Part shown: one piece after another, positions 27,459-55,037 of the stretch
Layout of the letters: every line of letters starts with the position of its first letter
How positions within the stretch are numbered: position 1 is the first letter of the stretch
Assembly: GCA_964431415.1 (NCBI GenBank)
Contig: CAYSJS010000001.1
Coordinates: 65,740 to 129,739 of the forward strand
Source of the DNA: an uncultured Candidatus Saccharibacteria bacterium
GTDB lineage: Bacteria > Patescibacteriota > Saccharimonadia > Saccharimonadales > JACDBH01
Direction: 5' to 3'
Length of the DNA: 64,000 bases
The notes under the pieces: generated by a model
Databases searched by the model: none
What the model saw: the letters and a program-made list of their open reading frames with translations, nothing else
Told to the model about the DNA's origin: nothing
Made by a program: the position numbers and the translations under genes

Positions 27459-28047
27459 TTATTCACAAAAAGGTTTTACGCTCATAGAACTCGTGATCGG
27501 ACTGTTTATTATTAGTATTATTTCGACCGCGTTCTTCACGTTCTTTAACACTTCTATAAGTCAGTACCTGTCTCTTCACCGTGACAGTATGGCGTTTGGC
27601 GACCTTGCCACTCAGACACAACGAGTCGCAAATGTAGTGCGCAGTCTAACCGACATAACGCAAGCAGAAAATAACGAACTCACTATGTATGCTTACTTTG
27701 CGCCAAATGATACATACGTATCTTTAGTGCATTATTACTTAACAAACAGCAACACCAAAATGGTTGCAGACGTTACGCGTATGACTTCAAACCCACCTAT
27801 TGGTACACCGATTGCAGCTTCTTTAAAGAACTTCAAAATCATCGATAACTTTTATCTTGCAAGCAATCTTAATACGTTTAATTATTACGATGGGGGAGGC
27901 AACTTGCTTACACCGCCCATAGCCGACCTTCATACCATCAAAACAATCAGGATTAAACTTGCCGTGCCGTCTAAGTCGCCTGTTGCTACCAGCAACACAA
28001 CAATGACTGTTGATGTTTCGCTGCGAAACAGAAAGACAAACCTATGA
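27445..28047 (+). CDS. Type IV pilin-like / minor pilin protein
   Basis: MSARNYSQKGFTLIELVIGLFIISIIS prepilin signal. Overlaps the upstream gene by 14 nt. Confidence 0.8.
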   Translation: MSARNYSQKGFTLIELVIGLFIISIISTAFFTFFNTSISQYLSLHRDSMAFGDLATQTQRVANVVRSLTDITQAENNELTMYAYFAPNDTYVSLVHYYLTNSNTKMVADVTRMTSNPPIGTPIAASLKNFKIIDNFYLASNLNTFNYYDGGGNLLTPPIADLHTIKTIRIKLAVPSKSPVATSNTTMTVDVSLRNRKTNL

Positions 28048-29684
28048 TAGATTTCTTTAAACGAGCAAGGGGACATAAAGCAACTTACAATCTGCCCGCT
28101 ATGCGCTCCTCAAAGACACTCGAGCCACAGAACGGCTTTATCATTCCGGCCATACTAAGTCTTATGGTTGCACTGTCCATAATCACCGGTTCGGTCGTGA
28201 TATTGATCGACAGCAACTTTTCGCTGGTTAATCGAAATATTAAAAGTCAGGAAGCCTTCAATATTGCCGAGGCCGGTATTAACTATTATTTATGGCACTT
28301 AAGCCATAACGCTACCGACTACCGCGACGGGCAAAGCACTCCGGTAAATCCCGACGCGATACTTGGTTACGGACCATACACCCACAATTATATGAATAGC
28401 AATGCCACGATATCGGGAACCTTCAAGCTATACATAAAACCACAGTCAGCCACATCGAGTATTGTTTCCGTGCGCTCGACCGGTACTGCAAACGGCTACA
28501 ATGCGTCGCGCACTATCGAAGCTCAGATCGGCGCGCCGGCATTTTCTAGTTACGCCATTGTTTCCGACTCGGCATTATGGTTTGGCAGCAATGAAGAGGC
28601 AGATGGACCAGTCCATTCAAACCAGGGCATACGCATGGACGGCGCAAGCAACTCGGACATAACCAGTGCGAACGCCACCTATATTCCTTCGAGCGCCATT
28701 GGTGGGAACGGCAGCACCAGTCACCCTGGGGTCTGGTGTGATACGAGCGTCGTATCGCCCGTCAACTGCAGCACACGCCCAAAGACCGATTGGCGCTATC
28801 CCGTGCCTGCAGTCGACTTTAACCAAATCAGCGGAACGCTCTGCACCATCAAGAAGCTTGCTTTTGCCGCCGATGCCGCCACCAGCGCACTTGCAAATCA
28901 GGCCAATGCCTGCTCACAAACGCCCACTACGCGGACAGCTGCATATTTGCCACAGCGCAGTTCAAGCGCAAATACCTCGCGCGGATATCTGATCGAGCTT
29001 AATAATAACGGCACATATAATCTTTCAACGGTAAACAACGAAAACGATACGCAGTCATCCTACAGTACAGCCCTAAACACTCAGTCGGTCGCTAATAATA
29101 TTGCTATTCCGGCAAGCGGCGTTATATTTACAGAAGATAACGTCTGGGTACGCACAACTTCTACGTTTACCGGTCGCCTTACGATTGCTTCCGGTAGACT
29201 GGCAACCACCGTCGAAACAAATATAAATATTGCGGACGACATCGTATACACCAGCAAAAACGGCACCGATGCTATTGGTTTAATAGCCGAAAATTCTATA
29301 ATTCTTTCGCCGTATGCTGCACCGTCAAGCGGTAATTTTACATTGGAAGTGAACGCAGCAGTAATTGCCCAAAACGGCGATGTAGTATTCCCATCTAACT
29401 ACAGCTTTAGTAACGGTACTTGTACAAAAGGATACGTAAATCCGAATCAAAAACTTTATTTTTACGGCTCTATTGCGGTACGCCAAACCTGGACATGGTC
29501 GTGGCAGTGGTCAAGCAGCTGCGGCAACAATACATACGATTCAGTATCAGGAAAGTATATTTCCGGCTTTAAGTACAACACCACAAAGTATGACTACAAT
29601 CTAATGTATAATCCACCGCCCAGCTTCCCTATAACCAGCAGTTACAACACGCTCTCGTGGCGGGAAGTACTCGTTGCGCCCTAG
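28044..29684 (+). CDS. Pilus-associated large protein (PilX-like N-terminal hydrophobic helix)
   Basis: N-terminus QNGFIIPAILSLMVALSIITGSVVILI. ATGA-coupled to the preceding pilin gene. 546 aa, rich in Ser, Thr and Asn. Confidence 0.55.
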   Translation: MIDFFKRARGHKATYNLPAMRSSKTLEPQNGFIIPAILSLMVALSIITGSVVILIDSNFSLVNRNIKSQEAFNIAEAGINYYLWHLSHNATDYRDGQSTPVNPDAILGYGPYTHNYMNSNATISGTFKLYIKPQSATSSIVSVRSTGTANGYNASRTIEAQIGAPAFSSYAIVSDSALWFGSNEEADGPVHSNQGIRMDGASNSDITSANATYIPSSAIGGNGSTSHPGVWCDTSVVSPVNCSTRPKTDWRYPVPAVDFNQISGTLCTIKKLAFAADAATSALANQANACSQTPTTRTAAYLPQRSSSANTSRGYLIELNNNGTYNLSTVNNENDTQSSYSTALNTQSVANNIAIPASGVIFTEDNVWVRTTSTFTGRLTIASGRLATTVETNINIADDIVYTSKNGTDAIGLIAENSIILSPYAAPSSGNFTLEVNAAVIAQNGDVVFPSNYSFSNGTCTKGYVNPNQKLYFYGSIAVRQTWTWSWQWSSSCGNNTYDSVSGKYISGFKYNTTKYDYNLMYNPPPSFPITSSYNTLSWREVLVAP

Positions 29685-30063: not shown

Positions 30064-30714
30064 ATGGAAGGTTTTACTTTACCGGGAGCTATTGTTCGTC
30101 ATTACGGCAAGTCCAGCATTGTTGTCTATCAGGGTGAAATTCCACGCGATGGTTTTTATGTAGAAAAGGGAATTATTAGGGTATATCAAATCGGCAGTAC
30201 GGGCGAAAGCCGTACGATAACGTTTTGCCGACCCGGTGACATTTTCCCGGTCGCGTGGTTAGCCGGTTCGGCAACGCCCGCAATTTACTACTACGAAGCA
30301 TTTGAAGATGTAGATCTTATGCAGGTAACCCGCGACGCGTGGACCGAGGCTCTTACGAACAAAGAAATACACGAACAATTTACAAAATATGTTATCCAAA
30401 ACTATCAGAACGCCCTCGTGCGCATAGCCGCCCTAGAGCAAGCAAAAGCACGCGAAAAGATTGCATACACCCTTTTTTACTTAATGCTGCGCCATGGGCG
30501 CGAAATAGTCCCTGGCGTCTTTCGGCTGGATATTCGCTTAAAACACCAAGACATAGCCGAACTAGTGGGTCTGACACGCGAAACCACCGCCATAGAAGTA
30601 CATGCGCTTCAGAAAGAAAAAGTTTTGTCCTATCAGAATCAACGCTATCTCATCAAAAAAGAAAAGCTGCTGGTTCAGCTTAACGAAGACAGTCTTCGTC
30701 ACCTCGAACTCTAA
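30064..30714 (+). CDS. Crp/Fnr-family transcriptional regulator
   Basis: N-terminal cNMP-binding beta-barrel-like region and C-terminal HTH (QDIAELVGLTRETTAIEVHALQKEKVL). A tatact -10 at 30052-30057 sits 6 nt before the ATG, so the mRNA may be leaderless. Confidence 0.8.
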   Translation: MEGFTLPGAIVRHYGKSSIVVYQGEIPRDGFYVEKGIIRVYQIGSTGESRTITFCRPGDIFPVAWLAGSATPAIYYYEAFEDVDLMQVTRDAWTEALTNKEIHEQFTKYVIQNYQNALVRIAALEQAKAREKIAYTLFYLMLRHGREIVPGVFRLDIRLKHQDIAELVGLTRETTAIEVHALQKEKVLSYQNQRYLIKKEKLLVQLNEDSLRHLEL

Positions 30715-30723
30715 ACGTTTATT

Positions 30724-31092
30724 TCAGGCACTAAGCTGCGCGTCTATCATTTTGGTAAGTTCCGATGGAGACGCCCAAGACTTCAGCATATATTTCGTGG
30801 CTCCGAGCGCAAACGCTTCGTCTATTTCTTTTTGCATATCTAAGTTACTAAATATGATCACTTTTACTTTTGGATGATTCTCGGCAATATTGTATTTTTT
30901 TAAGAATTCGATCCCGCCTATATGCGGCATACGTAAGTCAAGCAGTATAAGATCGGGTTCAAACGTTTCGCAGATCTTCAAAGCTTCCGCACCATCAAGT
31001 GCGCTTTCGACCGTATGGCCAGCCCGTTTTAAAATGAGTACGTACGCATCATTAAGGGCTTTTTCGTCTTCTGCGATGAGTATTTTTGCCAT
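30724..31092 (-). CDS. Stand-alone response-regulator receiver (CheY-like)
   Basis: KILIAEDE...DLILLDLRMPHIGG...KVIIFSNL...K. 122 aa with no output domain. Confidence 0.9.
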   Translation of the reverse strand: MAKILIAEDEKALNDAYVLILKRAGHTVESALDGAEALKICETFEPDLILLDLRMPHIGGIEFLKKYNIAENHPKVKVIIFSNLDMQKEIDEAFALGATKYMLKSWASPSELTKMIDAQLSA

Positions 31093-31168
31093 GGTTTCCT
31101 AACTTTTCCGAGCTTTCATATGTACTCTATAGTATACACTCATAAGCGAGCTGTAATATTTCTTACAT

Positions 31169-32944
31169 TTACTCCTTATGTTTCTTCGGTAAGGTGACGG
31201 TAAAGGTAGAGCCTTTTTTAGGCAAAGACACAAACGTTATATCGCCCCCATGCAGTAAGGCAAGCTGCTTTGCCAAATAGAGACCTATGCCGCTTCCGGC
31301 AATCTGACGCGTCAATTCATTAGGGATACGACTAAACTTTTTAAAAACATCGATATGATTTTTTTCGTCGATACCGACTCCATGATCTACAAAATCTACC
31401 ACCGCTATACCGCCCACAGATCGTAAGACAATCTTGATACGCTTATTCGGATACGAATATTTTGAAGCGTTAGAAAGAAGATTTTCAAATATCATCCTGA
31501 CATAGCGCGGATCAACTTCTGCACTTAGACCTCTTTTTGGCTTACTCAAAGAAACCTGCTGACCACGCTCTTTAATGGATGCCTTTTGATCGCGTATAAC
31601 CGACTCCAGAAGTTCGTCGATACGCACCGGTTCCGGATGCAAAGTAGTTTGTCCGGCATCAACGCGGGCAACATACAAAAGGTCGTCAACAATAGTAAGC
31701 TGCCGTTCGTTACTTTCGTACGCCATCTGAAGGAGCTTTTTTTGGTCTTTGCTGACATTGCCGGCAAAGCCATCGCGCACCATAGATATGTACTGCTTTA
31801 CGGCAGTTGCCGGTGTACGCAACTGATGAGACGCAAGGGACAGCAGCTCGTCTTTAGCCTCCTCGAGTCTTCTTTGTTCGTTATATGCAAGCGCCCGCGT
31901 CCGCCGTTGAATTAATAAATAGATAATTGCGGCGAGCGTTGTGGCGAATACACCCCCGCCCACGAGCACCCCGGTTGGTCGTGTCCGAATAGAGTAGGGC
32001 ACAATTCCTTCTTTGGTAAGATAGCGAACCACCCATGTCCTCCCGTAAAGCCGGAGCTCTTTTTGTAGCGATGACTCGTAGCTCATGACAGAATCATGGG
32101 GGACACTTTCGTAGACCAGCGTCTGATCTTCGACTCGGCTATCGTGGATAGTGAAGGCAAAGTCCGGCTCAGTCGGCGAAAACAAACTAGTAAATATCGA
32201 TTTTGTTTCAAATGGTGCATAAAAGTAGCCGGTGAGCGCCTCAAGCCGCTGCGTGTCGGTTTCGGTCGGCATACCCGTTTTATAAAGCGGCATATAGAGT
32301 AAAAAGCCGTCTCTCGTATTTTCTTTGCCCGACTGAATAAGGCTAACTAAATCCGAGAGAGTGGGTTCACCCGTCCGGGCAGCAAGCAGCATAGCCGAAC
32401 GACGCGTGGCATCGGAGTACATATCAAAGCCAAGAGCCGGCGAATTACGATCGGTTGTCACTTGGTTACCGGTTGGTACAATATAGGTAATCGGCGCATA
32501 TTCAGTCCGCTCGCCTTCAGGGTAAATCGTGTAGCTATCTAAACTTTCACTGCGAATAGACTGCTGGAAGCCTTCTTTGTCCGGCCCAGACACGAGCTTG
32601 ACATACCCAACACCTCTGATTCCCGGATACCTTTTTGTAAGCTGCAGCGACTGCACAAACGTCTTCCACTCATCGCGCGTCACTGCGTCGGAACTCATAA
32701 ATAAACCGTTAGCCGCCCGGAGCGCGTCCTCATAAATACTAAAGCGCTGCAAAATACTGCTTTCTATAAACGAAGCGTTTTGGCTAACCGTTGTGCTCAG
32801 CTGAGTTTTTATATCCTGCCGAGCGGTACGCCAGCTAACCACAATAATCATCATGAGCGCCAAAAACACCAGCAAGGCCGGCAGCAATGGCCGAACATAC
32901 TCTTCGCGTTTTGTATTATCTTCTGGGGAATTAATTATAAACAT
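31169..32944 (-). CDS. Sensor histidine kinase with large extracytoplasmic sensor domain (CHASE-like)
   Basis: Two TM segments flank a ~280-aa periplasmic-type domain. H-box SLASHQLRTPATAV; N and G boxes LLSNASKYS and GSGIGLYLAKQLALLHGG. Confidence 0.9.
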   Translation of the reverse strand: MFIINSPEDNTKREEYVRPLLPALLVFLALMMIIVVSWRTARQDIKTQLSTTVSQNASFIESSILQRFSIYEDALRAANGLFMSSDAVTRDEWKTFVQSLQLTKRYPGIRGVGYVKLVSGPDKEGFQQSIRSESLDSYTIYPEGERTEYAPITYIVPTGNQVTTDRNSPALGFDMYSDATRRSAMLLAARTGEPTLSDLVSLIQSGKENTRDGFLLYMPLYKTGMPTETDTQRLEALTGYFYAPFETKSIFTSLFSPTEPDFAFTIHDSRVEDQTLVYESVPHDSVMSYESSLQKELRLYGRTWVVRYLTKEGIVPYSIRTRPTGVLVGGGVFATTLAAIIYLLIQRRTRALAYNEQRRLEEAKDELLSLASHQLRTPATAVKQYISMVRDGFAGNVSKDQKKLLQMAYESNERQLTIVDDLLYVARVDAGQTTLHPEPVRIDELLESVIRDQKASIKERGQQVSLSKPKRGLSAEVDPRYVRMIFENLLSNASKYSYPNKRIKIVLRSVGGIAVVDFVDHGVGIDEKNHIDVFKKFSRIPNELTRQIAGSGIGLYLAKQLALLHGGDITFVSLPKKGSTFTVTLPKKHKE

Positions 32945-33593: not shown

Positions 33594-34820
33594 ATGTGGC
33601 GCATACATAAAAGCCGTACGATTCGTAAAAAGACATTGGCGTTTCTTTTACTGTGCGTGCTGACCAGCGGTCTGGGTCTTTATTCTTACCGCTCTTTTGC
33701 GATGCCGCTGCCGCTCGCTTCAGTATCGACCTATACCACTTCGGCAAAAAGTTCGGAGCTGGTGCCATTACCATGGCCCGAAAAAGGTCAGGCGGCAATT
33801 GGCAGCTTGGCCGAGGGAGTGTTGGCACGTTCTAGCACCGACCAAAATCCGCAGCCAATTGCCAGTATTGCAAAGATACTTACTGCACTTGCCGTACTCG
33901 ATAAAAAACCACTGGCACTCAATGACGACGGGCCGTCGATTACGCTCGGCCGCCGAGATGTGGATATATATAAAGACTACATAGCAAACGGCGGTTCTGC
34001 AGTAAAAGTGGAAGAGAATGAAGTACTGAGTTTAAGACAAATACTTGAAGGCACACTTCTGCCATCGGCAAACAATCTCGCCGACAGCATGGCTATATGG
34101 GCGTTTGGTTCACTTGAAAATTACACCGAGTATGCAAACAAACTCGTTAGCTCGTGGGAGCTACACAAAACTACCGTACGTGATGCCAGCGGCTTTTCCG
34201 ACACCACAACCAGCACAGTAGACGAACTTGTTCGTATAGGCCAAAAAGCAATGAGCAACCCCGTGCTTGCAAACATCGTTCAGAAAAAGGAGGCTACTCT
34301 ACCTGTAGCCGGCGTAATAACCAATACCAACATCTTACTGGCAAACGGAGCCACGGGTATAAAAACCGGCCACACTGACAAAGCGGGCGCGTGCCTCTTA
34401 TTTGCGACTAATTATGCGGTTACTGATTCTGCAACTATAACCGTAATCGGGGCAGTGCTCGGCCAATCGGATATGAGCCAAGCATTTGCCGCTTCAGGGT
34501 CGATCATAAGCGCCAGCAAAAAGAATTTTGGCGAACAGACCATAGTTGCAAAAGGGGAGAGAGTCGCCAGTTACCGCAGCGCCTGGGGCTCGGTTACAGG
34601 AATCGTAGCCAACGAGCCTCTGACATTTGTGGGCTGGAAGGCCAGCAACGTAAAGGTAACCACCGCCATAAAAGAGGCGAGCACGGTAAAAAAGGGCGAA
34701 GACAGCGGCGTCGTAAGCATCAGCTTTAACAACAAAACTTCAAGTGTCGCAGTAAGTGCCGAAAACGACCTCGGCAAACCGTCTATATACTTTAGGCTGA
34801 GACATGGTCTTTCGTTATAA
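33594..34820 (+). CDS. D-alanyl-D-alanine carboxypeptidase (serine-type, PBP5/S11 family)
   Basis: SxxK (ASIAKI), SxN (PSANN), KTG (KTGHT). N-terminal signal/anchor. Confidence 0.88.
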   Translation: MWRIHKSRTIRKKTLAFLLLCVLTSGLGLYSYRSFAMPLPLASVSTYTTSAKSSELVPLPWPEKGQAAIGSLAEGVLARSSTDQNPQPIASIAKILTALAVLDKKPLALNDDGPSITLGRRDVDIYKDYIANGGSAVKVEENEVLSLRQILEGTLLPSANNLADSMAIWAFGSLENYTEYANKLVSSWELHKTTVRDASGFSDTTTSTVDELVRIGQKAMSNPVLANIVQKKEATLPVAGVITNTNILLANGATGIKTGHTDKAGACLLFATNYAVTDSATITVIGAVLGQSDMSQAFAASGSIISASKKNFGEQTIVAKGERVASYRSAWGSVTGIVANEPLTFVGWKASNVKVTTAIKEASTVKKGEDSGVVSISFNNKTSSVAVSAENDLGKPSIYFRLRHGLSL

Positions 34821-34844: not shown

Positions 34845-35813
34845 ATGACCGCACATAGTCCAAAGCTTTCAGTAGTGATACCCATCTTTAACGAATCGGC
34901 CGGCTTGGCGCGATTTCACGAAGAGCTTTTAGCGGTTTTAGAGCCGATGTCCATACCGTACGAAGTTTTATACTGCGACGATGGCAGTCATGATAACTCG
35001 GGTGATATGGTGAAAAACTGGGCGCAAAACAGGGATTCGATTAAGCTTGTTTCGCTTTCAAGAAATTTTGGCAAAGAAGCGGCGCTTGCCGCCGGACTCG
35101 CGCATGCCCGCGGCCAGGCAATACTCATGATTGATGGCGACGGACAGCATCCGGTTGAGCTTATTCCCGACTTTCTTGCTGCGTGGGAGCAGGGGGCACA
35201 GGTAGTGGTCGGCCTGCGCCGGTCCAATAGCGGCGAAGGCTACGTAAAACAATATGGCTCAAAATTCTTTTACTACCTGTTTAACAAGTTCGCTTCGGAA
35301 CCACTTATACCGGGCTCAACCGACTTTAGGCTCATAGACAGAGAGGTACAGCAAGCATTCCTGGAATTAAAAGAAAACGAAAGACTCACCCGCGGACTTA
35401 TCGACTGGCTTGGCTTTAGGCGGACGTTTATTTCTTTTGATGCGCGTGCCCGCGAGCACGGCAAGGCAGGCTATTCAAATCGCAAGCTTATCGGCCTTGC
35501 TGCCAACAGCATTATTTCGCTCACCGTAGCTCCGCTCTATCTATTCGGCTACATCGGCATGGCCATCACGTTCTTTTCGTTTATATTCGGCACAGTCGTG
35601 TTCTTGGAGCAAATCCTACTTAATGATCCGCTATCGTGGGATTTTACCGGTACGGCATTACTCGGCATCATGACCGTCTTTTTGGTCGGCATTGTACTGC
35701 TTTCACAGGGAATCTTAGCGATTTATATATCTCATATTCATGCCGAAACAAAACAGCGTCCACTCTATGTCGTGGATTACTCGCATTCTGCCGGCATTAA
35801 TGAGAAACGTTAA
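34845..35813 (+). CDS. GT2 polyprenyl-phosphate glycosyltransferase (GtrB/ArnC/DPM1-like)
   Basis: LSVVIPIFNES, YCDDGSHDNS, DGDGQHP and two C-terminal TM helices. Confidence 0.88.
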   Translation: MTAHSPKLSVVIPIFNESAGLARFHEELLAVLEPMSIPYEVLYCDDGSHDNSGDMVKNWAQNRDSIKLVSLSRNFGKEAALAAGLAHARGQAILMIDGDGQHPVELIPDFLAAWEQGAQVVVGLRRSNSGEGYVKQYGSKFFYYLFNKFASEPLIPGSTDFRLIDREVQQAFLELKENERLTRGLIDWLGFRRTFISFDARAREHGKAGYSNRKLIGLAANSIISLTVAPLYLFGYIGMAITFFSFIFGTVVFLEQILLNDPLSWDFTGTALLGIMTVFLVGIVLLSQGILAIYISHIHAETKQRPLYVVDYSHSAGINEKR

Positions 35814-35815
35814 CG

Positions 35816-36235
35816 ATGTTTAGCCGCTTAAGAAAAGTCAACCCGACCATTAGGCGTTATGTCGTAGTGGGCGTGCTCGTATATTTTTTTGAGATAGCGG
35901 TCCTTATTCTTGCGCAACAGCTTGGAGCCAGCGCTTTAGTGGCGGTAACGTTTAGTTTCTGGCTCGGTCTCGTGGTCTCCTTTCTGCTGCAGAAGTTAGT
36001 AACATTCAAAGATAAGCGCCTACATAGAAAAATCGTCCTCGTCCAGTTCCTGGCTGCCTGCGCCTTGGTTCTTTGGAACTTCTTATTTACGCTGTTGGTA
36101 ACAAAAATCCTTGAAAGCGTTATACCCGCGGCCCTAACCCGAACACTCGCTTTAGGTGTCACCACTATATGGAACTTTTACTTATATAAAACACGCATTT
36201 TTAAACAACCGCCGCTAGATCCGCTTGTTTCCTGA
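35816..36235 (+). CDS. GtrA-family membrane protein (putative lipid-linked sugar flippase)
   Basis: 139 aa with 4 TM helices. Size, topology and position immediately after the GtrB-like gene fit GtrA. Confidence 0.75.
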   Translation: MFSRLRKVNPTIRRYVVVGVLVYFFEIAVLILAQQLGASALVAVTFSFWLGLVVSFLLQKLVTFKDKRLHRKIVLVQFLAACALVLWNFLFTLLVTKILESVIPAALTRTLALGVTTIWNFYLYKTRIFKQPPLDPLVS

Positions 36236-36267
36236 GAGCTTTTCGGTAATACTTATACGTAAGCGAT

Positions 36268-38859
36268 ATGACTGTTCTTAAAAAATACAGAAAATTAGTC
36301 AAAACACTGCGGCACTATAGAACGCAGCACCTCAAAAAACATATCCAGACCGTTCGTTTTGCAGAACAGTATCTAAGATTCTCTCTTTTCATCTTAATTG
36401 CGAGCACCGTCCTGTGGTCCCTCGTAAGTGCCTCCATACACATGACCAACGCGGATCAGCTGGTGAGCCCGTACATGTTCGACTCGGTAGCAGTATTTAA
36501 AAACGCTACTTTTCCCGGTCAGCACACGTTTCTATTTAAATGGCCGGTTTTTTGGTTGGTCCATGCGCTTGACTCGACCACATTCGCTTACACATTTTTT
36601 ACTGTTATCTTAAGCCTTGCGACCGTAGGCGCGTTTGCGTATTTGCTATCTAAAATCGAAAAAAGACCACTCGTGTTAGGCACTCTTATCCTTGCCTTAA
36701 GCGGAACACTCCTGCTCGTTCCCGCCCAGGCCGCTCCTGGTATGCTTTTGCCGGTAAACTTTGGAATGATCACAAACCGTAACGTCGAATACATTTTACT
36801 GTTCGCCGGAGTGATCGCAATTTTAAAAAGCACAAAGATAAAAAGTCGTTTATTCGTAAGTACTACAGTTATTCTCGCACTCCTCACAGCCAGCGATCGG
36901 CTGTTTCTTTCTATATCCGTAGCCGGAGCAGGTATCGGCCTTACGGCGGTGACGCTTGCCAAAAAATGGCGTTATTCGAGCGCTATGGCGCGTTTCACAT
37001 TAAGCAGTATAGCCGGCGGCATTTTGGGCAGTGGCATCTTGTTTTTGATTGACTCGCTGCATATAACCTCTATCGCCCAGCAAACGACCGCGACGTACAG
37101 CATAAACCACTCAGCACACACCTTAGTGCTGAACCTCTTTTATGCATGCAGCGGTATACTTACAAACTTTGGCGCAAACCTTGCCGTGCACACAACTACC
37201 ATTTCACAAATGCCGCGTGAGGCCCTTCGCACTTTGTTTTCTTTTGGCGGCCCCTTAAGTGTTCTTAATCTCGCCGTCTTTTTAGTAGCACTGCTCGCAA
37301 GCATCAAATTATTTGCCCATATCTTAAGGCGTAAAACGACCGGCTTTTCACTTACGTATGCGGTATTTATCGGATCGTTTTGCGTTGCGCTCGCCGCTCT
37401 AGCAGCTTTTGTGCTTACCGATCACTATGCAGCAGGTGATTCGCGGTACTTGACGGTCTTTTTATTTGCTTTATTCATCGGACTAACCGCATACCTCCGT
37501 GATCGCCACTTAAACCTGGAGCGCTTGGTTTATTTGGGCGGTGCGCTGACGACCGCCATTCTCTTAGCTACTCCTTCGGTTTTTGCAAATGCCCGATTAT
37601 CAAAACAAGTAATGGCAGAGACTAACCGCCGAAATAGCCTCATTGTCGACGCGCTAAAGAGTCACCACGTGAACATATTGCTCGGCGATTATTGGCGCGT
37701 ACTACCTATTCGTCAGGCAAGCAGCTCAAAACTGGACGTTATGCCGCTCAGCGACTGCACAACCGCACGCGACGTACTGAGCAGCCTCTCTTGGCAGCCC
37801 AACATGCAGCAAGTTAGCTTTGCCTATATACTGACTACCGACAAAGGACTTACCGACTATCCAAGCTGCACACTCGACGACATCACCACCGCATATGGCA
37901 AACCGAACGCCAGTATCGTCATAGCTGGCACACAGGACGACCCAAAAGAGCAGCTGCTGTTTTATGATCACGGTGCGCATAAAAGTAGTCCAAAATTAGG
38001 CTCAGACACTACTGCAACCTCACCGCTCTCGACCGAAGAACTCCCAAATACTTCATGCAGCAAAAGCACCCGATTCAATATCGTTGCACACGAAGACGAT
38101 GATTTGCTATTTATGAACCCGAGTATTCAAACTGAGCTAAACCAGGGAACATGCGTTAGGACCATATATCTCACAGCTGGCGACGCCGGCTCTAACCAGT
38201 TTTATTGGCTGAGCCGCGAGCAGGGATCGGAAGCCGCCTACAACCACATGATAGGTTATGATGCACTCTGGGTACACCGAACCGTCAAACTTGCGGATAA
38301 GCAATATATTACGGTCGCAAACCCAAGAGGCAACCCCCGCGTTTCACTTATATTTTTCCGCTTGCCCGATGGTAACCTGCAAGGCGGAGGTTTTAGCGGT
38401 TATGGCTACGAAAGCCTGCAGAAACTCTATGACGGCTCAATTAATTCCATACGTTCCGTATACGGAGACAGCAATTTTACAAAAGAAACGCTTATAGATG
38501 CCATCCTGCGGCTTATGCAGCTCTATGGCCCGTCATCGGTCCATACACAAAGTACCTGGAATGAACCACCTTTACACGATCACAGCGACCATATTGCGAC
38601 AGCACACTTTACCGATGCGGCCTATCAGCATTACATTTCTGGCTCTTCTGCCAAAGCCGAGCTAACTACCCTGAGCCACTACGCCGGCTACTCGGTAAGA
38701 AATCTGCCAGAAAATGTGCACGGCGAAGACTTGCACCGAAAAACCGAGTCGTTTCTTCGGTATGCACAGCACGACTCAGGGGTATGTCATTCGCACGACG
38801 AATGCGAGCACACCCCAACATACGGCGGCTACTTAAAGCGTCAATACTTAACCGACTAA
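36268..38859 (+). CDS. Fusion: polytopic GT-C-like membrane domain plus C-terminal PIG-L/LmbE-family deacetylase domain
   Basis: About 560 aa with more than 12 hydrophobic segments, then RFNIVAHEDDDLLFMNP...YLTAGDAG and HDHSDH, the LmbE zinc-binding motif pattern. Confidence 0.7.
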   Translation: MTVLKKYRKLVKTLRHYRTQHLKKHIQTVRFAEQYLRFSLFILIASTVLWSLVSASIHMTNADQLVSPYMFDSVAVFKNATFPGQHTFLFKWPVFWLVHALDSTTFAYTFFTVILSLATVGAFAYLLSKIEKRPLVLGTLILALSGTLLLVPAQAAPGMLLPVNFGMITNRNVEYILLFAGVIAILKSTKIKSRLFVSTTVILALLTASDRLFLSISVAGAGIGLTAVTLAKKWRYSSAMARFTLSSIAGGILGSGILFLIDSLHITSIAQQTTATYSINHSAHTLVLNLFYACSGILTNFGANLAVHTTTISQMPREALRTLFSFGGPLSVLNLAVFLVALLASIKLFAHILRRKTTGFSLTYAVFIGSFCVALAALAAFVLTDHYAAGDSRYLTVFLFALFIGLTAYLRDRHLNLERLVYLGGALTTAILLATPSVFANARLSKQVMAETNRRNSLIVDALKSHHVNILLGDYWRVLPIRQASSSKLDVMPLSDCTTARDVLSSLSWQPNMQQVSFAYILTTDKGLTDYPSCTLDDITTAYGKPNASIVIAGTQDDPKEQLLFYDHGAHKSSPKLGSDTTATSPLSTEELPNTSCSKSTRFNIVAHEDDDLLFMNPSIQTELNQGTCVRTIYLTAGDAGSNQFYWLSREQGSEAAYNHMIGYDALWVHRTVKLADKQYITVANPRGNPRVSLIFFRLPDGNLQGGGFSGYGYESLQKLYDGSINSIRSVYGDSNFTKETLIDAILRLMQLYGPSSVHTQSTWNEPPLHDHSDHIATAHFTDAAYQHYISGSSAKAELTTLSHYAGYSVRNLPENVHGEDLHRKTESFLRYAQHDSGVCHSHDECEHTPTYGGYLKRQYLTD

Positions 38860-38866
38860 GATCTTT

Positions 38867-41263
38867 TTAGGACTTGGTTTCGCTCGTTCCGAAATCCCAC
38901 TTCCAGTCGCGTATTTCTGGCATATCGATACCATTTTTCTCTATATAGTGGCGATGCTGCAGGAGTTTTTCTTCCATAGCCTGCTTTAGGTATGTGCCTT
39001 TCGTGCCTAGCTCCGGCAGGCGGTCAATAACGTCTATTACCAGATGAAAACGGTCAATATTATTCAGAACCGTCATGTCAAAGGCCGTGGTAATGGTACC
39101 TTCTTCTTTGTACCCTCGGACATGCAGGTTGCGGTTAGTGCGCCGATACGTCAGCCGATGTATGAGCCAAGGATACCCGTGGAAAGCAAAGATAATGTGT
39201 TTGTCTTTGGTAAATAGCGAATCGTAGTCCACGTCGCTCAACCCATGCGGACTCTCCGTTTCCGGCTCCAGCTTCATGAGATCGACTACGTTAACCACCC
39301 GCACACGAAGCTCGGGCAGGGCAGCCCGCAATATTGATACTGCCGCGAGCGTCTCTACGGTTGGCACGTCACCGGCACAGGCCATAACAACATCCGGTTC
39401 CTTTTCCTGGTCGTTGCTGGCCCATTTCCAGATACTTATGCCTTTCGTGCAATGGTCGATAGCCGCCTCCATACTTAAGAACTGTGGTGCTTCCGGATGC
39501 TTGCCGGCGATAACTAAGTTTACATAGTTTTGGCTGCGCAAACAGTGGTCAATAACCGACAGTAAGCTGTTGGCGTCCGGAGGCAAATACACACGTATAA
39601 TCTCTGACTTTTTGTTAATGACATGATCAATAAAACCCGGATCCTGATGTGTAAAACCATTATGATCTTGACGCCACACGTGCGAGGTCAAAAGATAGTT
39701 AAGCGACGCAATATTCTGGCGCCACGGCAGTTCGGAGCACATCTTGATCCACTTGGCATGCTGGGTAAGCATAGAGTCGATAATGCGGATAAACGCTTCA
39801 TAACTGTGCAGCAGCCCATGGCGACCGGTTAGCAGATAACCCTCCAGCCAGCCTTCGCTTTGGTGCTCGCTTAGCATCGAATCAAGTACCCGGCCATCGC
39901 GCGCCAAGAATTCATCGTTTGGCTTAATAGCGGCGTTCCATTGACGAGGTGACGCCTCAAATACAGCCTCAAGCCGGTTAGATACCGTTTCGTCCGGACT
40001 AAATATTCGGAAGTTGCGCTGCTCATCATTGAGCTTTATTACGTCCCTTAGGAACGGTGCGAGCGTATGCATACAGCTTGCCTGCACTTCAGTCGGGCGG
40101 GGGACATCAATAGCATACTCTCTAAAGTCCGGCATATTCAGCGTGCGGAGCAGTTTGCCGCCATTGGCATGCGGGTTTGCACCCATCCGACGTGTTCCTT
40201 TAGGTGCCAGTTCCGCAAGATCAGCGTTAAGCGTCCCATTTTCGTCAAACAGTTCTTCGGGACGGTAACTACGCAGCCAGTCTTCTAGCTGTTCAAGATG
40301 CTCTTTTGGTGAAGTTGCTGAAATAGAAAGCGGAACTTGATGCGACCGGAAAGAACCTTCATTAGGCATGCCATCAATAACTTTTGGACCAGTCCAGCCT
40401 TTCGGCGAGTTAAATATGATCATCGGCCAGCGTGGACGCTCATAATTTTTGCTGCGAGCCGCTTTCTTCTTTATGTCTTTGATATCTTTCATGGCTTGGT
40501 CAAGCGTTGCAGCCATTAACTGGTGCATCTTTTCAGGATCCGACCCCTCTACAAAGTACGGCTTCCAGCCATAGCCCTTAAATAATTGTTCTTGTTCCTT
40601 TCTGGTAATGCGCGCAAGCACAGTCGGGTTGGAGATCTTGTAACTATTTAAGTGCAGTATAGGGAGCACCGTTCCGTCCGTTAGTGGATTTAAAAACTTG
40701 TTGGAATGCCACGCGGTCGCAAGCGGACCGGTCTCTGCTTCACCGTCCCCAACTACACAGGCAACTACTAAATCCGGGTTATCAAACGCCGCTCCAAAAG
40801 CATGGCTCAGCGAGTACCCAAGTTCGCCGCCTTCATGAATCGAACCCGGCGTCTGCGGAGAAACGTGGCTGGATATACCGCCAGGGAAGGAAAACTGCCG
40901 AAACAAACGCTTAAGACCAGCTTCGTCTTGGCTTACGTGCGGGTATATTTCACTATATGTTCCTTCTAGATACACATTGCCAACCAACGCTGGACCGCCA
41001 TGCCCCGGACCGGAAATGTAGATCATATTCTGGTCGTATTTGTTAATGATACGGTTCAGGTGAACGTAAATAAAGTTTTGGCCCGGCGTCGTCCCCCAGT
41101 GCCCAAGCAGCAACTGCTTAATGTGGCTAAGCTCTAGCGGCTGCCGTAGCAACACATTGTCACATAAGTAGATTTGACCCACCGACAGGTAATTCGCCGC
41201 TCGCCAATACGCATTCATCTTACCTAATACACTTGGACTAAGCGGTTTACTAGTACGCCTCAT
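38867..41263 (-). CDS. xfp: Xylulose-5-phosphate/fructose-6-phosphate phosphoketolase
   Basis: 798 aa. N-terminus [36 protein letters not shown] (TPP-binding). Confidence 0.95.
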
Positions 41264-42468
41264 ACTGACCCTTCTTTTTTATTAACTTTATCCATTATTT
41301 TTTGCACCCCATCATAAATCGTTGCCGATTCGTCGGTAGGCAATACATACACAGAAACCGTACTCTCGGGCAGGGATATAAGCTCTTTTGCAGCATCATT
41401 TGCCCCTTGGCCTAGTCTAACGCCAAGAAACTCAAGCCCCTCACAGATACGCCAACGAATTTTCGGCGCCTGTTCGCCCATGCCGCCGCTAATTACTATA
41501 TAGTCAAGCCCGCCCATTGCAGCCGCATATGCACCGATCGTCTTCTTAACCTGATAACAAAAAGCCTCCACCGCTTCATGAGCGCGCGGATCTATGGCTT
41601 CTTGCTCCAGCAGCACCTTCATGTCCGGAGTCGTGCCCGACATACCCAAAAGTCCGGACTGAAAATTAAAAATGTCATTTAGCTCATCGGCATCCATATG
41701 CTCGTGCTTTACCAAAAATACCGCCACACCCGGATCAATATCGCCAGAACGCGTACTCATAGGTATGCCGCCAGCCGGCGTAAGCCCCATAGTCGTGTCA
41801 ATTACAGCACCGTTTTTTACCGCACACATGCTTGCGCCGCTGCCCAGGTGTGCAAACACCACGCGTTTTGTCTGCAAGTCATCACCGCTTACTTTTTGCA
41901 GAGCACCATAGAGGTATTGATACGAAAGCCCATGGAAGCCGTATCGCTTCAAGCCTTTTTCGGAGTACCTACGGGGAATAGGCAGACGCTGTGCTCGGTC
42001 GGGCAAATCGCGGAAGAAACCGGTATCAAAACAGGCAACGTGCAGCGCATTTGGGTAGAGTTCCTGCGCGGCATGAATAATTTCCAGCTCAACTTTAATA
42101 TGCTCTGCATCAAACTCGGCGATACGGTGCAGCTCCTTAAGCACCGATTCGGTAATGTGTTCAACTTCTTTAAGCTTCGGACCGCCGTGCACCACTCTAT
42201 GTCCTACCGCTACCACATCTTTCATAGGCGTGTTTTCTCTAAGCCACACAACGACCATTTGCAGCGCTTCACCGTGGTCGGCGGCCGCAAGCGGTATTTC
42301 GGACGCGTCATCGGCATCCTCGATTTTTAGCGTGGCATGAGTCAACCCTATATTTGACGCCGTGGCATGGGCTATTTTTACCGCATGAGAGCCGGCTTCA
42401 TAGACAGTACACTTCAGGCTCGAAGAACCCGTGTTCAATACTAAAATAACGTCTTTTGTTTCTGCCAT
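41260..42468 (-). CDS. ackA: Acetate kinase
   Basis: [34 protein letters not shown] 4-nt overlap couples it to xfp. Confidence 0.95.
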
Positions 42469-55013: not shown

Positions 55014-55037
55014 AACCTGCCATGATAAGATAGTCTA

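What the first reader, a model, noticed from the sequence alone, without database searches (positions are those of the whole stretch)
34845..38859. GtrB-GtrA-GT-C three-component glycosylation system with an LmbE deacetylase fused to the GT-C
**Seen in sequence.** Three consecutive genes encode:
- a GT2 polyprenyl-phosphate glycosyltransferase
- a 4-TM GtrA-like protein
- an 863-aa protein whose N-terminal ~560 aa are polytopic membrane, and whose C-terminal ~300 aa carry LmbE/PIG-L motifs (AHEDDDLLFMNP, HDHSDH)

**Established knowledge.** GtrA/GtrB/GtrC-type and CsbB/GtcA/YfhO-type systems load a sugar on undecaprenyl-P, flip it, and transfer it to an extracytoplasmic polymer.

**Inference.** The fused deacetylase suggests GlcNAc is transferred and then de-N-acetylated to GlcN on the envelope polymer, creating a positive charge. 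I do not know of this fusion being characterised. A D,D-carboxypeptidase gene sits immediately upstream.
Basis: partly seen in the sequence, partly recalled or inferred. Interest (0 to 1): 0.55.

Follow-up and report, generated by a model that had tools for sequence, protein, structure and literature searches.

The report
Surface sugar-adding system with built-in deacetylase
A Saccharibacteria (candidate phylum TM7) operon encodes the standard three-protein machinery for adding a sugar to a cell-surface polymer, but its outward-facing transferase is a new sequence family joined to a deacetylase that normally works inside cells, so it probably decorates the surface with a positively charged amino sugar.

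Summary
Three tightly spaced + strand genes encode:
- a GtrB/ArnC-type polyprenyl-phosphate glycosyltransferase (34845-35813);
- a 4-TM GtrA protein (35816-36235);
- an 863-aa protein (36268-38859).

The 863-aa protein has 11 TM helices (residues 1-440), a ~125-aa soluble domain, a flexible 16-38-aa T/S/P-rich linker, and a PIG-L/LmbE domain (598-863) with every catalytic motif invariant.

AlphaFold models (pLDDT 91-92) match only GT-C enzymes in the membrane part (DPY19, PglB, ArnT, AftA; TM 0.37-0.44). No Pfam GT-C family is hit by any of 57 relatives, so it is an unclassified GT-C-fold family.

The positive-inside rule (57/57 sequences) and three conserved cysteine pairs place the PIG-L domain outside the cell, which is unusual for this family.

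The family is confined to Saccharibacteria (161 species genomes). About 86% of members are fused. GT2 and GtrA lie directly upstream in about 77% and 80-90% of loci. In one unfused subclade the same PIG-L subfamily is a separate adjacent gene.

The sugar (inferred HexNAc), the acceptor, and whether deacetylation precedes or follows transfer are all untested. I found no published description. Verdict: a new variant of a known kind, of moderate interest.

The parts
34845..35813 (+). GtrB/ArnC-type polyprenyl-phosphate glycosyltransferase (GT2 catalytic domain plus a C-terminal two-helix membrane hairpin). Predicted to make the lipid-linked sugar donor on the cytoplasmic face.
   Evidence: PF00535, E = 1.7e-29. 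NCBIfam best matches are PgfS (1.2e-67) and ArnC (1.6e-41), both below the equivalog cutoffs. Aligns end to end with GtrB 5EKP (4.8e-66) and ArnC structures (2.5e-35). Directly upstream of the fusion gene in 53/70 and 48/62 related loci.
35816..36235 (+). GtrA-family small 4-TM protein, the presumed flippase for the lipid-linked sugar.
   Evidence: PF04138, E = 3e-12 over the whole profile. Lies 2 nt after the GT2 stop. Present upstream or fused N-terminally to the GT-C in 56/70 and 56/62 related loci. Fused variants of about 1000 aa carry PF04138 + PF02585.
36268..37587 (+). Membrane domain of the 863-aa protein (residues 1-440): 11 TM helices, N-terminus inside, GT-C fold, unclassified by sequence.
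   Evidence: Hydropathy and positive-inside analysis. AF2 models with pLDDT 91-92. Foldseek hits only to GT-C enzymes. No Pfam GT-C family hit in any of 57 members at E <= 10. Invariant polar residues N61, D63, Q64, H86, K91, R171, N172, E174, D210, H386, D391, R393 and Y394 all lie in predicted outside loops.
36448..36459 (+). N61-A-D63-Q64 motif at the start of the first extracytoplasmic loop. D63 is the candidate catalytic acid of the GT-C domain.
   Evidence: N61 and Q64 are invariant and D63 is present in 56/57. Translation verified. The motif lies immediately after TM1 in both models. The catalytic role is inferred from the general GT-C pattern.
37588..37974 (+). Extension of the last TM helix plus a soluble alpha/beta domain (residues 441-569), predicted extracytoplasmic. 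Contains the invariant cysteine pair C497/C534.
   Evidence: AF2 secondary structure H417-465, then strands and helices 470-566. C497 and C534 are present in 57/57. Also present in the PIG-L-less homologues.
37975..38058 (+). Flexible T/S/P-rich linker (residues 570-597).
   Evidence: Lowest pLDDT in the model, 58-77. Length 16-38 aa across 53 homologues, 37% T/S/P, and the least conserved segment. Translation verified.
38059..38859 (+). PIG-L/LmbE (CAZy CE14) zinc-deacetylase domain (residues 598-863, plus the stop codon), predicted extracytoplasmic.
   Evidence: PF02585 at 49.8 bits against a cutoff of 28.2. Foldseek hits BC1534, BshB, TT1542, diacetylchitobiose deacetylase and MshB at E = 8e-5 to 9e-4, TMt 0.46-0.62. 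Motifs AH608xD610D611D612, T636xGDxG, R650, LPD701G and D771H772SD774H775 are invariant or nearly so in all 53 fused members. Cysteine pairs C597/C629 and C840/C846 are present in 53/53.
33594..34820 (+). D,D-carboxypeptidase (Peptidase_S11), 24 nt upstream on the same strand. Possibly co-transcribed here, but not a conserved member of the system.
   Evidence: PF00768, E = 5.1e-23. A homologue is adjacent in only L005 and L006 (upstream) and L008 and L050 (downstream) out of 80 loci.

Best explanation
The three genes form a Gtr-type three-component extracytoplasmic glycosylation system in which the last component is bifunctional.

**Step 1 (fold and family shown, activity inferred).** The GtrB/ArnC-type GT2 transfers a sugar from a nucleotide sugar to undecaprenyl phosphate on the cytoplasmic face. 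Because of the PIG-L partner, the sugar is most likely an N-acetylhexosamine such as GlcNAc.

**Step 2 (family shown, activity inferred).** GtrA moves the lipid-linked sugar to the outer leaflet.

**Step 3 (fold and topology shown, activity inferred).** The 11-TM GT-C-fold domain transfers the sugar to an acceptor outside the membrane. Its conserved acidic and polar residues, notably the N-A-D63-Q motif, lie in outward-facing loops. The acceptor is unknown: a wall or lipid-anchored glycopolymer, or possibly a surface protein.

**Step 4 (domain, intact catalytic set and outside location shown or predicted; substrate inferred).** The PIG-L zinc deacetylase is tethered to the transferase by a flexible linker. 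It removes the N-acetyl group of the newly attached sugar, leaving a free amine (GlcN-type, cationic) on the cell surface.

I favour deacetylation after transfer. PIG-L-less family members keep the same invariant residues in the membrane domain, and the one such locus examined has a similar GT2 partner. This suggests the donor handled by the transferase is the same with or without the deacetylase.
For: **Gene identities**
-.

**Conserved gene order**
- GT2 then GtrA then fusion, in two independent locus sets: 53/70 and 56/70 genome loci, and 48/62 and 56/62 metagenome loci.
- GtrA is sometimes fused to the same polypeptide. This fits the topology, because an even number of added TM helices keeps the GT-C N-terminus inside.

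**GT-C fold**
- High-confidence models: pLDDT 91.2 / pTM 0.86 (full length) and 91.9 / 0.90 (N-domain).
- The only credible PDB matches are GT-C enzymes.

**Outside location of the C-terminal half**
- Every inside loop is net positive and every outside loop is neutral or negative, in 57/57 sequences.
- There are 2 + 4 conserved cysteines.
- The linker is T/S/P-rich.

**Deacetylase competence**
- All PIG-L motifs are invariant in 53/53 fused members.
- The fold matches BshB, MshB and diacetylchitobiose deacetylase.

**Functional coupling of GT-C and PIG-L**
- 201 of 234 complete family members are fused.
- In the P0117/P0118 subclade a separate PIG-L gene lies immediately upstream of the unfused GT-C.
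- Its C-terminus is orthologous to the fused domain: 36% identity, E = 3e-17 by BLASTP, and 1e-28 against the family C-domain HMM.

**Order of steps**
- Unfused homologues keep N61, Q64, H86, K91, R171, N172, D210, H386, D391 and R393.
- The GT2 at an unfused locus is 49% identical to the window's GT2, inside the 44-61% range of GT2s at fused loci.
Against: - No enzymatic activity, sugar identity or acceptor has been shown for any member of the family.
- The GT2 is as similar to glucose-specific GtrB (226 bits) as to PgfS (228 bits). HexNAc is therefore inferred only from the PIG-L partner.
- GT-C similarity is remote (TM 0.37-0.44, E = 3e-3 to 2e-2), and no sequence family is matched.
- Topology is predicted from charge bias and helix counts, not measured, and no dedicated topology predictor was available.
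- I had no model coordinates or PAE. The distance and orientation between the two active sites, and the predicted disulfides, could not be checked.
- All known analogous amino-sugar pathways (ArnD, NaxD) deacylate the lipid-linked donor, not the product. PIG-L's namesake substrate is also a lipid-linked GlcNAc. Both facts favour the rival order.
- About 20-25% of loci lack an adjacent GT2.
Confidence: 0.5

Rival explanations
1. The components are the same, but the order is reversed. After flipping, the tethered PIG-L domain de-N-acetylates the lipid-linked donor at the outer leaflet (Und-P-GlcNAc to Und-P-GlcN). The GT-C domain then transfers the already deacetylated amino sugar. This would be an outside-the-membrane version of the ArnC-ArnD-ArnT, FlmF2-NaxD-FlmK and PpgS-(unknown deacetylase)-Rv3779 logic.
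For: - All characterised pathways of this kind are described as deacylating the lipid-linked intermediate before GT-C transfer. NaxD acts on undecaprenyl-phosphate-linked GalNAc (PMC10927774). [quoted passage not shown]
- The founding PIG-L enzyme acts on a lipid-linked GlcNAc (GlcNAc-PI; established knowledge).
- Fusion to the membrane protein keeps the deacetylase at the membrane surface, where the donor is.
- pTM of 0.86 for the full-length model suggests a defined rather than free arrangement of the two domains.
Against: - PIG-L-less homologues retain the same invariant putative active-site residues.
- The one PIG-L-less locus examined in detail has a similar GT2 partner. If the donor differed (GlcN against GlcNAc), some divergence in the donor site would be expected.
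- The linker is variable in length and poorly conserved. That suits reaching a polymer better than a fixed lipid headgroup.
- Neither argument is strong.
Confidence: 0.3
2. The two activities are tethered but act on different residues. The GT2/GtrA/GT-C arm transfers a non-acetylated sugar such as glucose, as classical GtrB does. The PIG-L domain de-N-acetylates a GlcNAc or other N-acetyl sugar already present in the acceptor (peptidoglycan, a linkage unit or a wall polysaccharide). This would either create the acceptor site or be an independent second modification.
For: - The GT2's closest solved relative is glucose-specific GtrB, and nothing in the sequence shows HexNAc specificity.
- A D,D-carboxypeptidase lies immediately upstream in this window, hinting at a cell-wall context.
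- An unfused homologue sits in a polysaccharide cluster with mannose-nucleotide genes (L082).
Against: - The carboxypeptidase neighbour is not conserved (4/80 loci).
- The tight, ancient and twice-realised (fused and split) coupling of this PIG-L subfamily with this GT-C family is most simply explained by successive steps on one sugar.
- Known extracytoplasmic polysaccharide and peptidoglycan de-N-acetylases belong to CE4, not PIG-L (established knowledge).
Confidence: 0.12
3. The membrane domain is not a glycosyltransferase. It would be only an anchor or transporter-like scaffold that holds an exported deacetylase at the surface, with the neighbouring GT2 and GtrA serving another transferase.
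For: - GT-C similarity is only at fold level with modest TM-scores, and there is no sequence-family match.
- Some loci lack an adjacent GT2.
Against: - The hits are exclusively GT-C enzymes, with a sharp drop to TM <= 0.17 for all other polytopic proteins.
- About 15 invariant polar residues cluster in outside loops, including an acidic residue at the start of loop 1 as in GT-C enzymes.
- The domain exists on its own next to GT2 and GtrA (L082).
- A mere anchor would not need 11 conserved TM helices.
- No other GT-C candidate is encoded beside the GT2/GtrA pair.
Confidence: 0.05

Closest known systems
GtrA/GtrB/GtrC(type) O-antigen glucosylation of Shigella/Salmonella phages, and the general 'three-component' extracytoplasmic glycosylation systems (reviewed in PMC11127046 and PMC13390465)
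   Same: - A GtrB-type GT2 with a C-terminal TM hairpin (E = 4.8e-66 to GtrB 5EKP).
- A GtrA-family 4-TM protein.
- A polytopic GT-C-fold transferase.
- All three clustered in one operon.
   Different: - The transferase matches no Pfam GT-C family, including the GtrC-type Glucos_trans_II family.
- The host is a Gram-positive-like Patescibacterium without O antigen.
- The transferase carries an extra extracytoplasmic deacetylase domain, which no described Gtr system has (literature).
Gram-positive CsbB/GtcA/YfhO and GacI/GacJ/GacK/GacL systems, which add GlcNAc to teichoic acids or rhamnopolysaccharide (bioRxiv 10.1101/180810; PMC13390465)
   Same: - The same three-step logic in a monoderm envelope.
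- Und-P-GlcNAc is the donor in those systems, as inferred here.
   Different: - The YfhO family is not matched.
- Those systems leave the sugar N-acetylated.
- No PIG-L domain is involved.
Mycobacterial/corynebacterial arabinogalactan galactosamine modification: PpgS (GT2) + Rv3632 (small membrane protein) + Rv3779 (GT-C)
   Same: - GT2 + small membrane protein + GT-C in a monoderm-lineage cell wall.
- The donor is made N-acetylated and the final residue is the free amine (PMC9671496).
   Different: - In that system the deacetylase and the flippase are 'as yet unidentified'. Here a deacetylase is encoded in the same polypeptide as the GT-C.
- The window GT2 matches the PpgS model only weakly (1.3e-7).
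- The relationship of the GT-C domains was not testable here.
Lipid A amino-sugar pathways: ArnC/ArnD/ArnT (Ara4N), Francisella/Acinetobacter FlmF2/NaxD/FlmK (GalN), Bordetella LgmA/LgmC/LgmB (GlcN)
   Same: - A GT2 related to ArnC (E = 2.5e-35).
- A deacylation step that unmasks an amine.
- A GT-C transferase with ArnT among the structural matches.
- The outcome is a cationic surface.
   Different: - The deacylases there are CE4 (ArnD) or YdjC-type (NaxD/LgmC) enzymes, described as acting on the lipid-linked sugar. They are not PIG-L domains exported and fused to the GT-C.
- The acceptor there is lipid A, which Saccharibacteria lack.
- The placement of those deacylases on the cytoplasmic side is from my own knowledge, not checked here.
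LmbE/PIG-L (CAZy CE14) deacetylases: MshB, BshB, BC1534, TT1542, archaeal diacetylchitobiose deacetylase, eukaryotic PIG-L
   Same: - Pfam PF02585 above its cutoff.
- The same fold.
- The complete zinc-ligand and catalytic motif set.
   Different: - No sequence hit to any solved PIG-L protein and no NCBIfam subfamily match.
- Predicted to work outside the cytoplasmic membrane, with conserved cysteine pairs, and covalently attached to a glycosyltransferase.
- The characterised members are soluble cytoplasmic enzymes or face the cytoplasm (established knowledge).

Membership tests
Three-component (Gtr-type) extracytoplasmic glycosylation system | Polyprenyl-phosphate glycosyltransferase: a GT2 catalytic domain with a C-terminal membrane hairpin | tested here: met
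   PF00535. End-to-end alignment, including the TM hairpin, with GtrB 5EKP (4.8e-66) and ArnC (2.5e-35).
Three-component (Gtr-type) extracytoplasmic glycosylation system | Small GtrA-family membrane protein (presumed flippase) encoded alongside | tested here: met
   PF04138, E = 3e-12 over profile positions 1-117/117. Conserved adjacency or fusion in 56/70 and 56/62 loci.
Three-component (Gtr-type) extracytoplasmic glycosylation system | Polytopic GT-C-fold transferase as the third, specificity-determining component | tested here: met
   Fold-level match only: DPY19, PglB, ArnT and AftA at TM 0.37-0.44, prob 0.87-1.0. Non-GT-C membrane proteins score TM <= 0.17.
Three-component (Gtr-type) extracytoplasmic glycosylation system | Formation of a lipid-linked monosaccharide, its flipping, and its transfer to an extracytoplasmic acceptor | not testable with these tools
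   Requires biochemistry or genetics.
GT-C glycosyltransferase superfamily | 8-13 TM helices with a conserved acidic residue in the first extracytoplasmic loop | tested here: met
   11 TM helices. D63 is present in 56/57 within the invariant N-A-D-Q motif at the start of loop 1. Its equivalence to the catalytic Asp of PglB or ArnT could not be checked without coordinates.
GT-C glycosyltransferase superfamily | Structural similarity to solved GT-C enzymes | tested here: met
Named GT-C sequence families (PMT/ArnT PF02366 and PF13231, YfhO PF09586, GtrC-type Glucos_trans_II PF14264, and the other GT-C families in Pfam) | Significant match to the family HMM | tested here: not met
   No such family appears for any of 57 members even at E <= 10. 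No NCBIfam match. A family profile finds no PDB sequence. An exhaustive HMMER search finds only 392 clusters at 50% identity, and the best 150 listed are all full or partial members of this same family.
LmbE/PIG-L (CE14) deacetylases | Match to PF02585 above the gathering threshold, and the LmbE-like fold | tested here: met
   49.8 bits against 28.2. 53/57 family members match. Foldseek hits BC1534, BshB, MshB and Dac at E = 8e-5 to 9e-4.
LmbE/PIG-L (CE14) deacetylases | Zinc ligands and catalytic residues: the AHPDD-type motif (His, general-base Asp, Asp) and the HxDH motif | tested here: met
   H608, D610, D611, D612, H772, D774 and H775 are invariant in 53/53 fused members. T636xGDxG, R650 and LPD701G are also conserved. 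The residue-to-role assignment is by motif analogy with MshB (my own knowledge), not by a structural alignment made here.
LmbE/PIG-L (CE14) deacetylases | De-N-acetylation of a GlcNAc-containing substrate | not testable with these tools
   Requires an enzyme assay.
Und-P-amino-sugar pathways of the Arn / NaxD / Lgm type | Deacylase of the CE4 (ArnD) or YdjC (NaxD/LgmC) family acting on the lipid-linked sugar | tested here: not met
   The deacetylase here is PIG-L and is predicted to lie outside the membrane. The system may work like these pathways but is not a member of them.

The most novel reading that the evidence does not exclude
This would be the first extracytoplasmic PIG-L/CE14 de-N-acetylase, hard-wired to a previously unclassified GT-C family. 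The pair would install free-amine (cationic) GlcN-type residues on the Saccharibacterial surface, a lineage-wide envelope trait that could shape attachment to host bacteria, or resistance to cationic antimicrobials and lysozyme. It would also give a concrete template (an exported PIG-L partner of the GT-C) for the still unidentified deacetylase step in the actinobacterial arabinogalactan-GalN pathway.
Probability: 0.3. Interest if true: 0.7.

Novelty: new variant of a known kind. Interest (0 to 1): 0.55.

Why it matters
**Saccharibacterial surface chemistry.** Saccharibacteria are ultrasmall episymbionts whose surface chemistry is essentially unknown. A recent study of their pili calls their glycosylation 'unexplored' (PMC11623550). 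This operon is one of the few envelope-modifying systems that can be read from sequence. It is conserved in at least 161 species-level genomes, and it predicts a specific, checkable chemical feature: free-amine hexosamine on an extracytoplasmic glycoconjugate.

**Three points of wider interest:**
- A GT-C family invisible to current sequence models.
- A PIG-L deacetylase relocated to the outside of the cell.
- A natural fusion that couples glycosyl transfer and de-N-acetylation. The corresponding deacetylation step in the mycobacterial/corynebacterial arabinogalactan-GalN pathway still has no assigned enzyme.

**Limits.** The overall logic (GT2, flippase, GT-C, unmasked amine) is well known, and nothing here has been shown biochemically.

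Tried and rejected
1. **Sequence placement of the membrane domain failed.** Pfam at default thresholds and at E <= 10 over 57 members, NCBIfam, and PDB sequence searches with a single sequence and with a profile all found nothing. An exhaustive HMMER search with an N-domain profile found only this same family.

3. **PDB sequence search with the PIG-L domain alone:** no hit. Residue roles therefore rest on motif analogy.

4. **Carboxypeptidase as a system member: rejected.** It is adjacent in only 4/80 loci. No other conserved neighbour was found. A histidine kinase/response regulator/Crp trio, a TagH-like ABC ATPase and a GT4 recur in only 11-19 of 80 loci.

5. **Using the partner GT2 to tell fused from unfused systems,** and hence the sugar, was uninformative. 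The GT2 at the unfused locus is 49% identical, against a 44-61% range at fused loci.

6. **Retrieving a full-length split PIG-L protein** to test for a signal peptide or membrane anchor failed.
   - The P0117 contig has no DNA on file.
   - The 89-aa and 142-aa fragments found nothing in the indexed search.
   - The metagenome scan returned 79 fused loci and one truncated locus.

7. **Promoter and terminator scans** were at chance level.

8. **Second copy:** there is no second copy of any of the three genes in the window. The other PIG-L gene, at 58532-59473, is unrelated beyond family level.

9. **Literature searches** for the fusion, or for any extracytoplasmic PIG-L linked to GtrA/GtrB or GT-C, found nothing relevant.

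Full report
**1. What is there**

Four + strand genes are packed with gaps of 24, 2 and 32 nt:
- a Peptidase_S11 D,D-carboxypeptidase (33594-34820);
- a GT2 (34845-35813, 322 aa);
- a GtrA-family protein (35816-36235, 139 aa);
- an 863-aa protein (36268-38859).

The 863-aa gene ends 8 nt from the stop of a convergent phosphoketolase gene. The window comes from an uncultured member of Candidatus Saccharibacteria. The 863-aa protein has an identical copy in public assemblies, and its named homologues are all Saccharibacteria, Saccharimonadales or Microsaccharimonas.

**2. The two small partners**

The GT2 aligns end to end, including its C-terminal two-helix membrane hairpin, with the polyisoprenyl-phosphate glycosyltransferases GtrB of Synechocystis (5EKP, E = 4.8e-66) and ArnC (E = 2.5e-35). 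NCBIfam places it nearest PgfS and ArnC, but far below the equivalog cutoffs. It is therefore a lipid-phosphate sugar synthase whose sugar cannot be read from sequence. GtrB itself uses UDP-glucose (PMC12698845, abstract seen). The 139-aa protein covers the whole GtrA profile.

**3. Anatomy of the 863-aa protein**

Hydropathy analysis and two AlphaFold2 models agree on the layout. The models are full length (pLDDT 91.2, pTM 0.86) and residues 1-590 (pLDDT 91.9, pTM 0.90).

| Residues | Feature |
|---|---|
| 1-28 | K/R-rich N-terminal helix |
| to about 440 | eleven TM helices |
| 59-104 and 264-327 | two long loops, predicted outside |
| to 465 | extension of TM11 |
| 470-566 | small alpha/beta domain |
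| 570-597 | low-confidence linker |
| 598-863 | PIG-L domain |

Across 53 homologues the linker is 16-38 aa long, 37% Thr/Ser/Pro, and the least conserved segment.

**4. Is the membrane domain a GT-C?**

By sequence, no known family is matched:
- No Pfam or NCBIfam hit.
- No GT-C family for any of 57 family members, even at E <= 10.
- No PDB sequence hit with a family profile.
- An exhaustive HMMER search of 1.84 billion representatives with an N-domain profile finds only 392 clusters. The best 150 listed are all full or partial members of this same family.

By structure, yes, remotely. With the full model and with the N-domain model, the only PDB matches of meaningful probability are GT-C enzymes:

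| Match | TMq | Probability |
|---|---|---|
| C-mannosyltransferase DPY19 | 0.44 (E = 2.6e-3) | 1.00 |
| PglB | 0.37-0.39 | 0.99-1.00 |
| ArnT | 0.39 | 0.97 |
| STT3, AglB, AftA | 0.33-0.43 | 0.72-0.87 |

MFS transporters, CLC channels and the other polytopic proteins listed at comparable E-values score TM 0.07-0.17 with probability <= 0.33.

The family's invariant polar residues are N61, D63 (56/57), Q64, H86, K91, R171, N172, E174, D210, H386, D391, R393 and Y394. All sit in loops predicted to face outward. The N-A-D-Q motif lies at the very start of loop 1, where GT-C enzymes carry their catalytic acid. The last point is established knowledge of the superfamily, not a structural superposition made here.

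I conclude it has a GT-C fold (confidence about 0.85) and forms a new, unclassified sequence family.

**5. Which side is the PIG-L domain on?**

- *Charge bias.* Averaged over 57 sequences, every predicted inside loop is net positive: N-tail +7.4, and the five short loops +0.9 to +1.9. Every outside loop lies between -1.1 and +0.8.
- *Density.* K+R density is 0.31-0.36 per residue inside against 0.05-0.06 outside, and inside exceeds outside in 57/57 sequences.
- *Parity at the C-terminal end.* The last three loops are +1.9, -1.1 and +1.5, so TM11 runs from inside to outside.
- *The one doubtful helix.* Helix 283-300 has a mean hydropathy of only 1.16. Treating it as a TM helix would put the K/R-rich loops 355-361 and 412-416 outside, so I read it as a juxtamembrane helix.
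- *Cysteines.* The post-membrane part contains exactly three conserved pairs: C497/C534 in 57/57, and C597/C629 and C840/C846 in 53/53. This is the pattern expected of disulfides in an exported domain.
- *GtrA fusions.* Variants with GtrA (4 TM) fused in front keep the same parity.
- *Known GT-C enzymes.* In solved enzymes such as PglB and ArnT, the soluble domain after the last helix is periplasmic (established knowledge).

The C-terminal 420 residues, PIG-L included, are therefore predicted to be extracytoplasmic. This was not measured, and no dedicated topology predictor was available.

**6. Is the PIG-L domain a working enzyme?**

- PF02585 is matched above threshold (49.8 against 28.2 bits).
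- The fold matches BC1534, BshB, TT1542, diacetylchitobiose deacetylase, MshB and teicoplanin deacetylases (E = 8e-5 to 5e-3, TMt about 0.5-0.6).
- All canonical motifs are conserved in all or nearly all of the 53 fused members examined: A-H608-x-D610-D611-D612, T636-x-G-D-x-G, R650, L-P-D701-G and D771-H772-S-D774-H775.
- By analogy with MshB (His13/Asp16/His147 zinc ligands, Asp15 base, His144; my own knowledge), H608, D611 and H775 would bind zinc and D610 would be the general base.

The domain is nevertheless divergent. It finds no PDB sequence and no NCBIfam subfamily.

**7. Evolutionary evidence for the system**

*Distribution.* A scan of one genome per GTDB species found relatives in 161 genomes. 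Of the 80 loci kept, 73 are labelled Saccharibacteria, Saccharimonadales, Saccharimonas or Microsaccharimonas. Five carry only generic labels (bacterium, uncultured bacterium, Patescibacteria group). The two labelled Binatia and Bacillota are probably mis-binned.

*Gene order.* Two independent locus sets agree:

| Locus set (>1.6 kb upstream available) | GT2 directly upstream, same strand | GtrA present (separate or fused) | Both |
|---|---|---|---|
| 70 genome loci | 53 | 56 | 45 |
| 62 metagenome loci | 48 | 56 | 44 |

No other neighbour is conserved.

*Architectures.* Among 234 complete family proteins:

| Architecture | Count |
|---|---|
| GT-C + PIG-L | 187 |
| GtrA + GT-C + PIG-L | 14 |
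| GT-C alone | 31 |
| GtrA + GT-C | 2 |

The unfused forms mostly make up their own, more divergent subclades.

*Unfused loci.*
- P0119 (L082) lies beside a GT2 and a GtrA inside a polysaccharide cluster containing a Bac_transf initiating enzyme, GT4s and mannose-nucleotide genes. The GT-C module therefore works in three-component systems without the deacetylase.
- At the P0117 locus, a separate 445-aa PIG-L gene lies 219 nt upstream of the unfused GT-C on the same strand.
- At the syntenic P0118 loci (L087, L168), the upstream gene fragment aligns with residues 772-863 of the window protein. The alignment runs from the HSDH motif through the Cys pair to the terminal YGxYLxRQY, at 36% identity, E = 3e-17, and 1e-28 against the family's own C-domain HMM.

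The same PIG-L subfamily is thus coupled to this GT-C family in two different gene arrangements. That is the classic signature of a functional partnership.

**8. Mechanism**

*Shown or strongly predicted:*
- A GtrB-type lipid-phosphate sugar synthase.
- A GtrA protein.
- A GT-C-fold transferase with an outward-facing conserved site.
- An outward-facing, catalytically intact PIG-L domain on a flexible tether.

*Inferred:*
- The sugar is an N-acetylhexosamine (from the PIG-L partner only).
- GtrA flips it.
- It is transferred to an unknown extracytoplasmic acceptor.
- The N-acetyl group is removed, leaving a free amine.

*Two orders are possible.*
- I slightly prefer transfer first, then deacetylation. 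Unfused homologues keep the same invariant membrane-domain residues, and the one unfused locus examined has a similar GT2. The tether is also variable.
- The reverse order is deacetylation of the flipped Und-P-HexNAc, then transfer of HexN. All characterised analogues are described this way: NaxD on undecaprenyl-phosphate-linked GalNAc, and the mycobacterial arabinogalactan-GalN pathway. It also fits PIG-L's namesake lipid-linked substrate.

I put the two orders at about 0.5 and 0.3. Smaller alternatives are that the deacetylase acts on a different residue of the acceptor (0.12), or that the membrane domain is not a transferase (0.05).

*The acceptor is open.* The top structural matches include both protein glycosyltransferases (DPY19, PglB) and lipid or polysaccharide ones (ArnT, AftA). 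Pilin glycosylation in Saccharibacteria is so far only predicted.

**9. Comparison with what is known, and novelty**

The system works like the Gtr, CsbB/GtcA/YfhO and GacI/L three-component systems, and meets their defining features at the family or fold level. Its transferase is not a member of any named GT-C sequence family (tested, not met).

It resembles the Arn/NaxD/Lgm and PpgS/Rv3779 amino-sugar pathways in outcome, but it uses a different deacetylase family on the other side of the membrane. In the PpgS/Rv3779 pathway the deacetylase is explicitly still unidentified (PMC9671496).

Nine full-text literature searches found no description of a PIG-L/GT-C fusion or of an extracytoplasmic PIG-L linked to GtrA/GtrB (among others).

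I rate it a new variant of a known kind: real, conserved and lineage-wide, with an unusual domain placement, but an unsurprising overall logic and no biochemical evidence. Interest 0.55.

Noticed in passing
window 53703-62261: A second glycan-related cluster containing a different, stand-alone PIG-L gene (58532-59473, - strand, 313 aa, PF02585, E = 1.6e-10). It is flanked by two GT4 genes, a radical SAM enzyme, an Fe-ADH_2 protein (glycerol-1-phosphate dehydrogenase or DHQS-like), a HAD hydrolase, an APH-type phosphotransferase and a UDP-glucose/GDP-mannose dehydrogenase. The combination recalls either MshA/MshB-type GlcN-conjugate synthesis or an aminoglycoside-like pathway. This PIG-L is unrelated to the fused domain beyond family level.
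   Followed up: partly
window 25893-29684: Two genes with type IV pilin N-terminal methylation motifs (25893-27458 and 27445-28047), followed by a 546-aa ORF with no Pfam match. This looks like a pilin locus about 5 kb upstream of the glycosylation operon. Pilins are one conceivable acceptor, but no link was tested.
   Followed up: no
window 30064-32944; related loci L001-L080: A trio of a Crp-like regulator (30064-30714, +), a response regulator (30724-31092, -) and a CHASE-domain histidine kinase (31169-32944, -) lies upstream of the operon. Homologues of these three recur near the operon in 11-19 of 80 related loci. This may be regulatory linkage or simply conserved synteny.
   Followed up: partly
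L017/L021 (MAG DATKGQ01) and L031/L033 (MAG CAZNOW01): Some Saccharibacterial MAGs carry two paralogous copies of the GT-C/PIG-L fusion on different contigs, each with its own GT2 nearby. This suggests more than one acceptor or sugar per cell.
   Followed up: no
L042 (labelled Candidatus Binatia) and L067 (labelled Bacillota): Two contigs assigned to non-Saccharibacterial MAGs carry typical members of this otherwise Saccharibacteria-restricted family. L042 also has the usual GT2 and GtrA upstream; L067 shows neither in the flank. Mis-binning is more likely than lateral transfer.
   Followed up: no
L087 2268-4420; P0117 locus: In the split (unfused) subclade, the GT-C gene is followed by a small PGPGW-family membrane protein (PF09656). 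In L087 it is then followed by an ABC transporter ATPase and an ABC-2 permease. This may be an export system for the acceptor polymer.
   Followed up: no
related loci L001-L080, downstream flanks: In 10-13 of 80 loci the operon lies next to jag/khpB, yidC, rnpA and dnaA homologues, that is, close to the replication origin region. That is not the case in this window, where phosphoketolase (38867-41263, -) and acetate kinase (41260-42468, -) follow instead.
   Followed up: no
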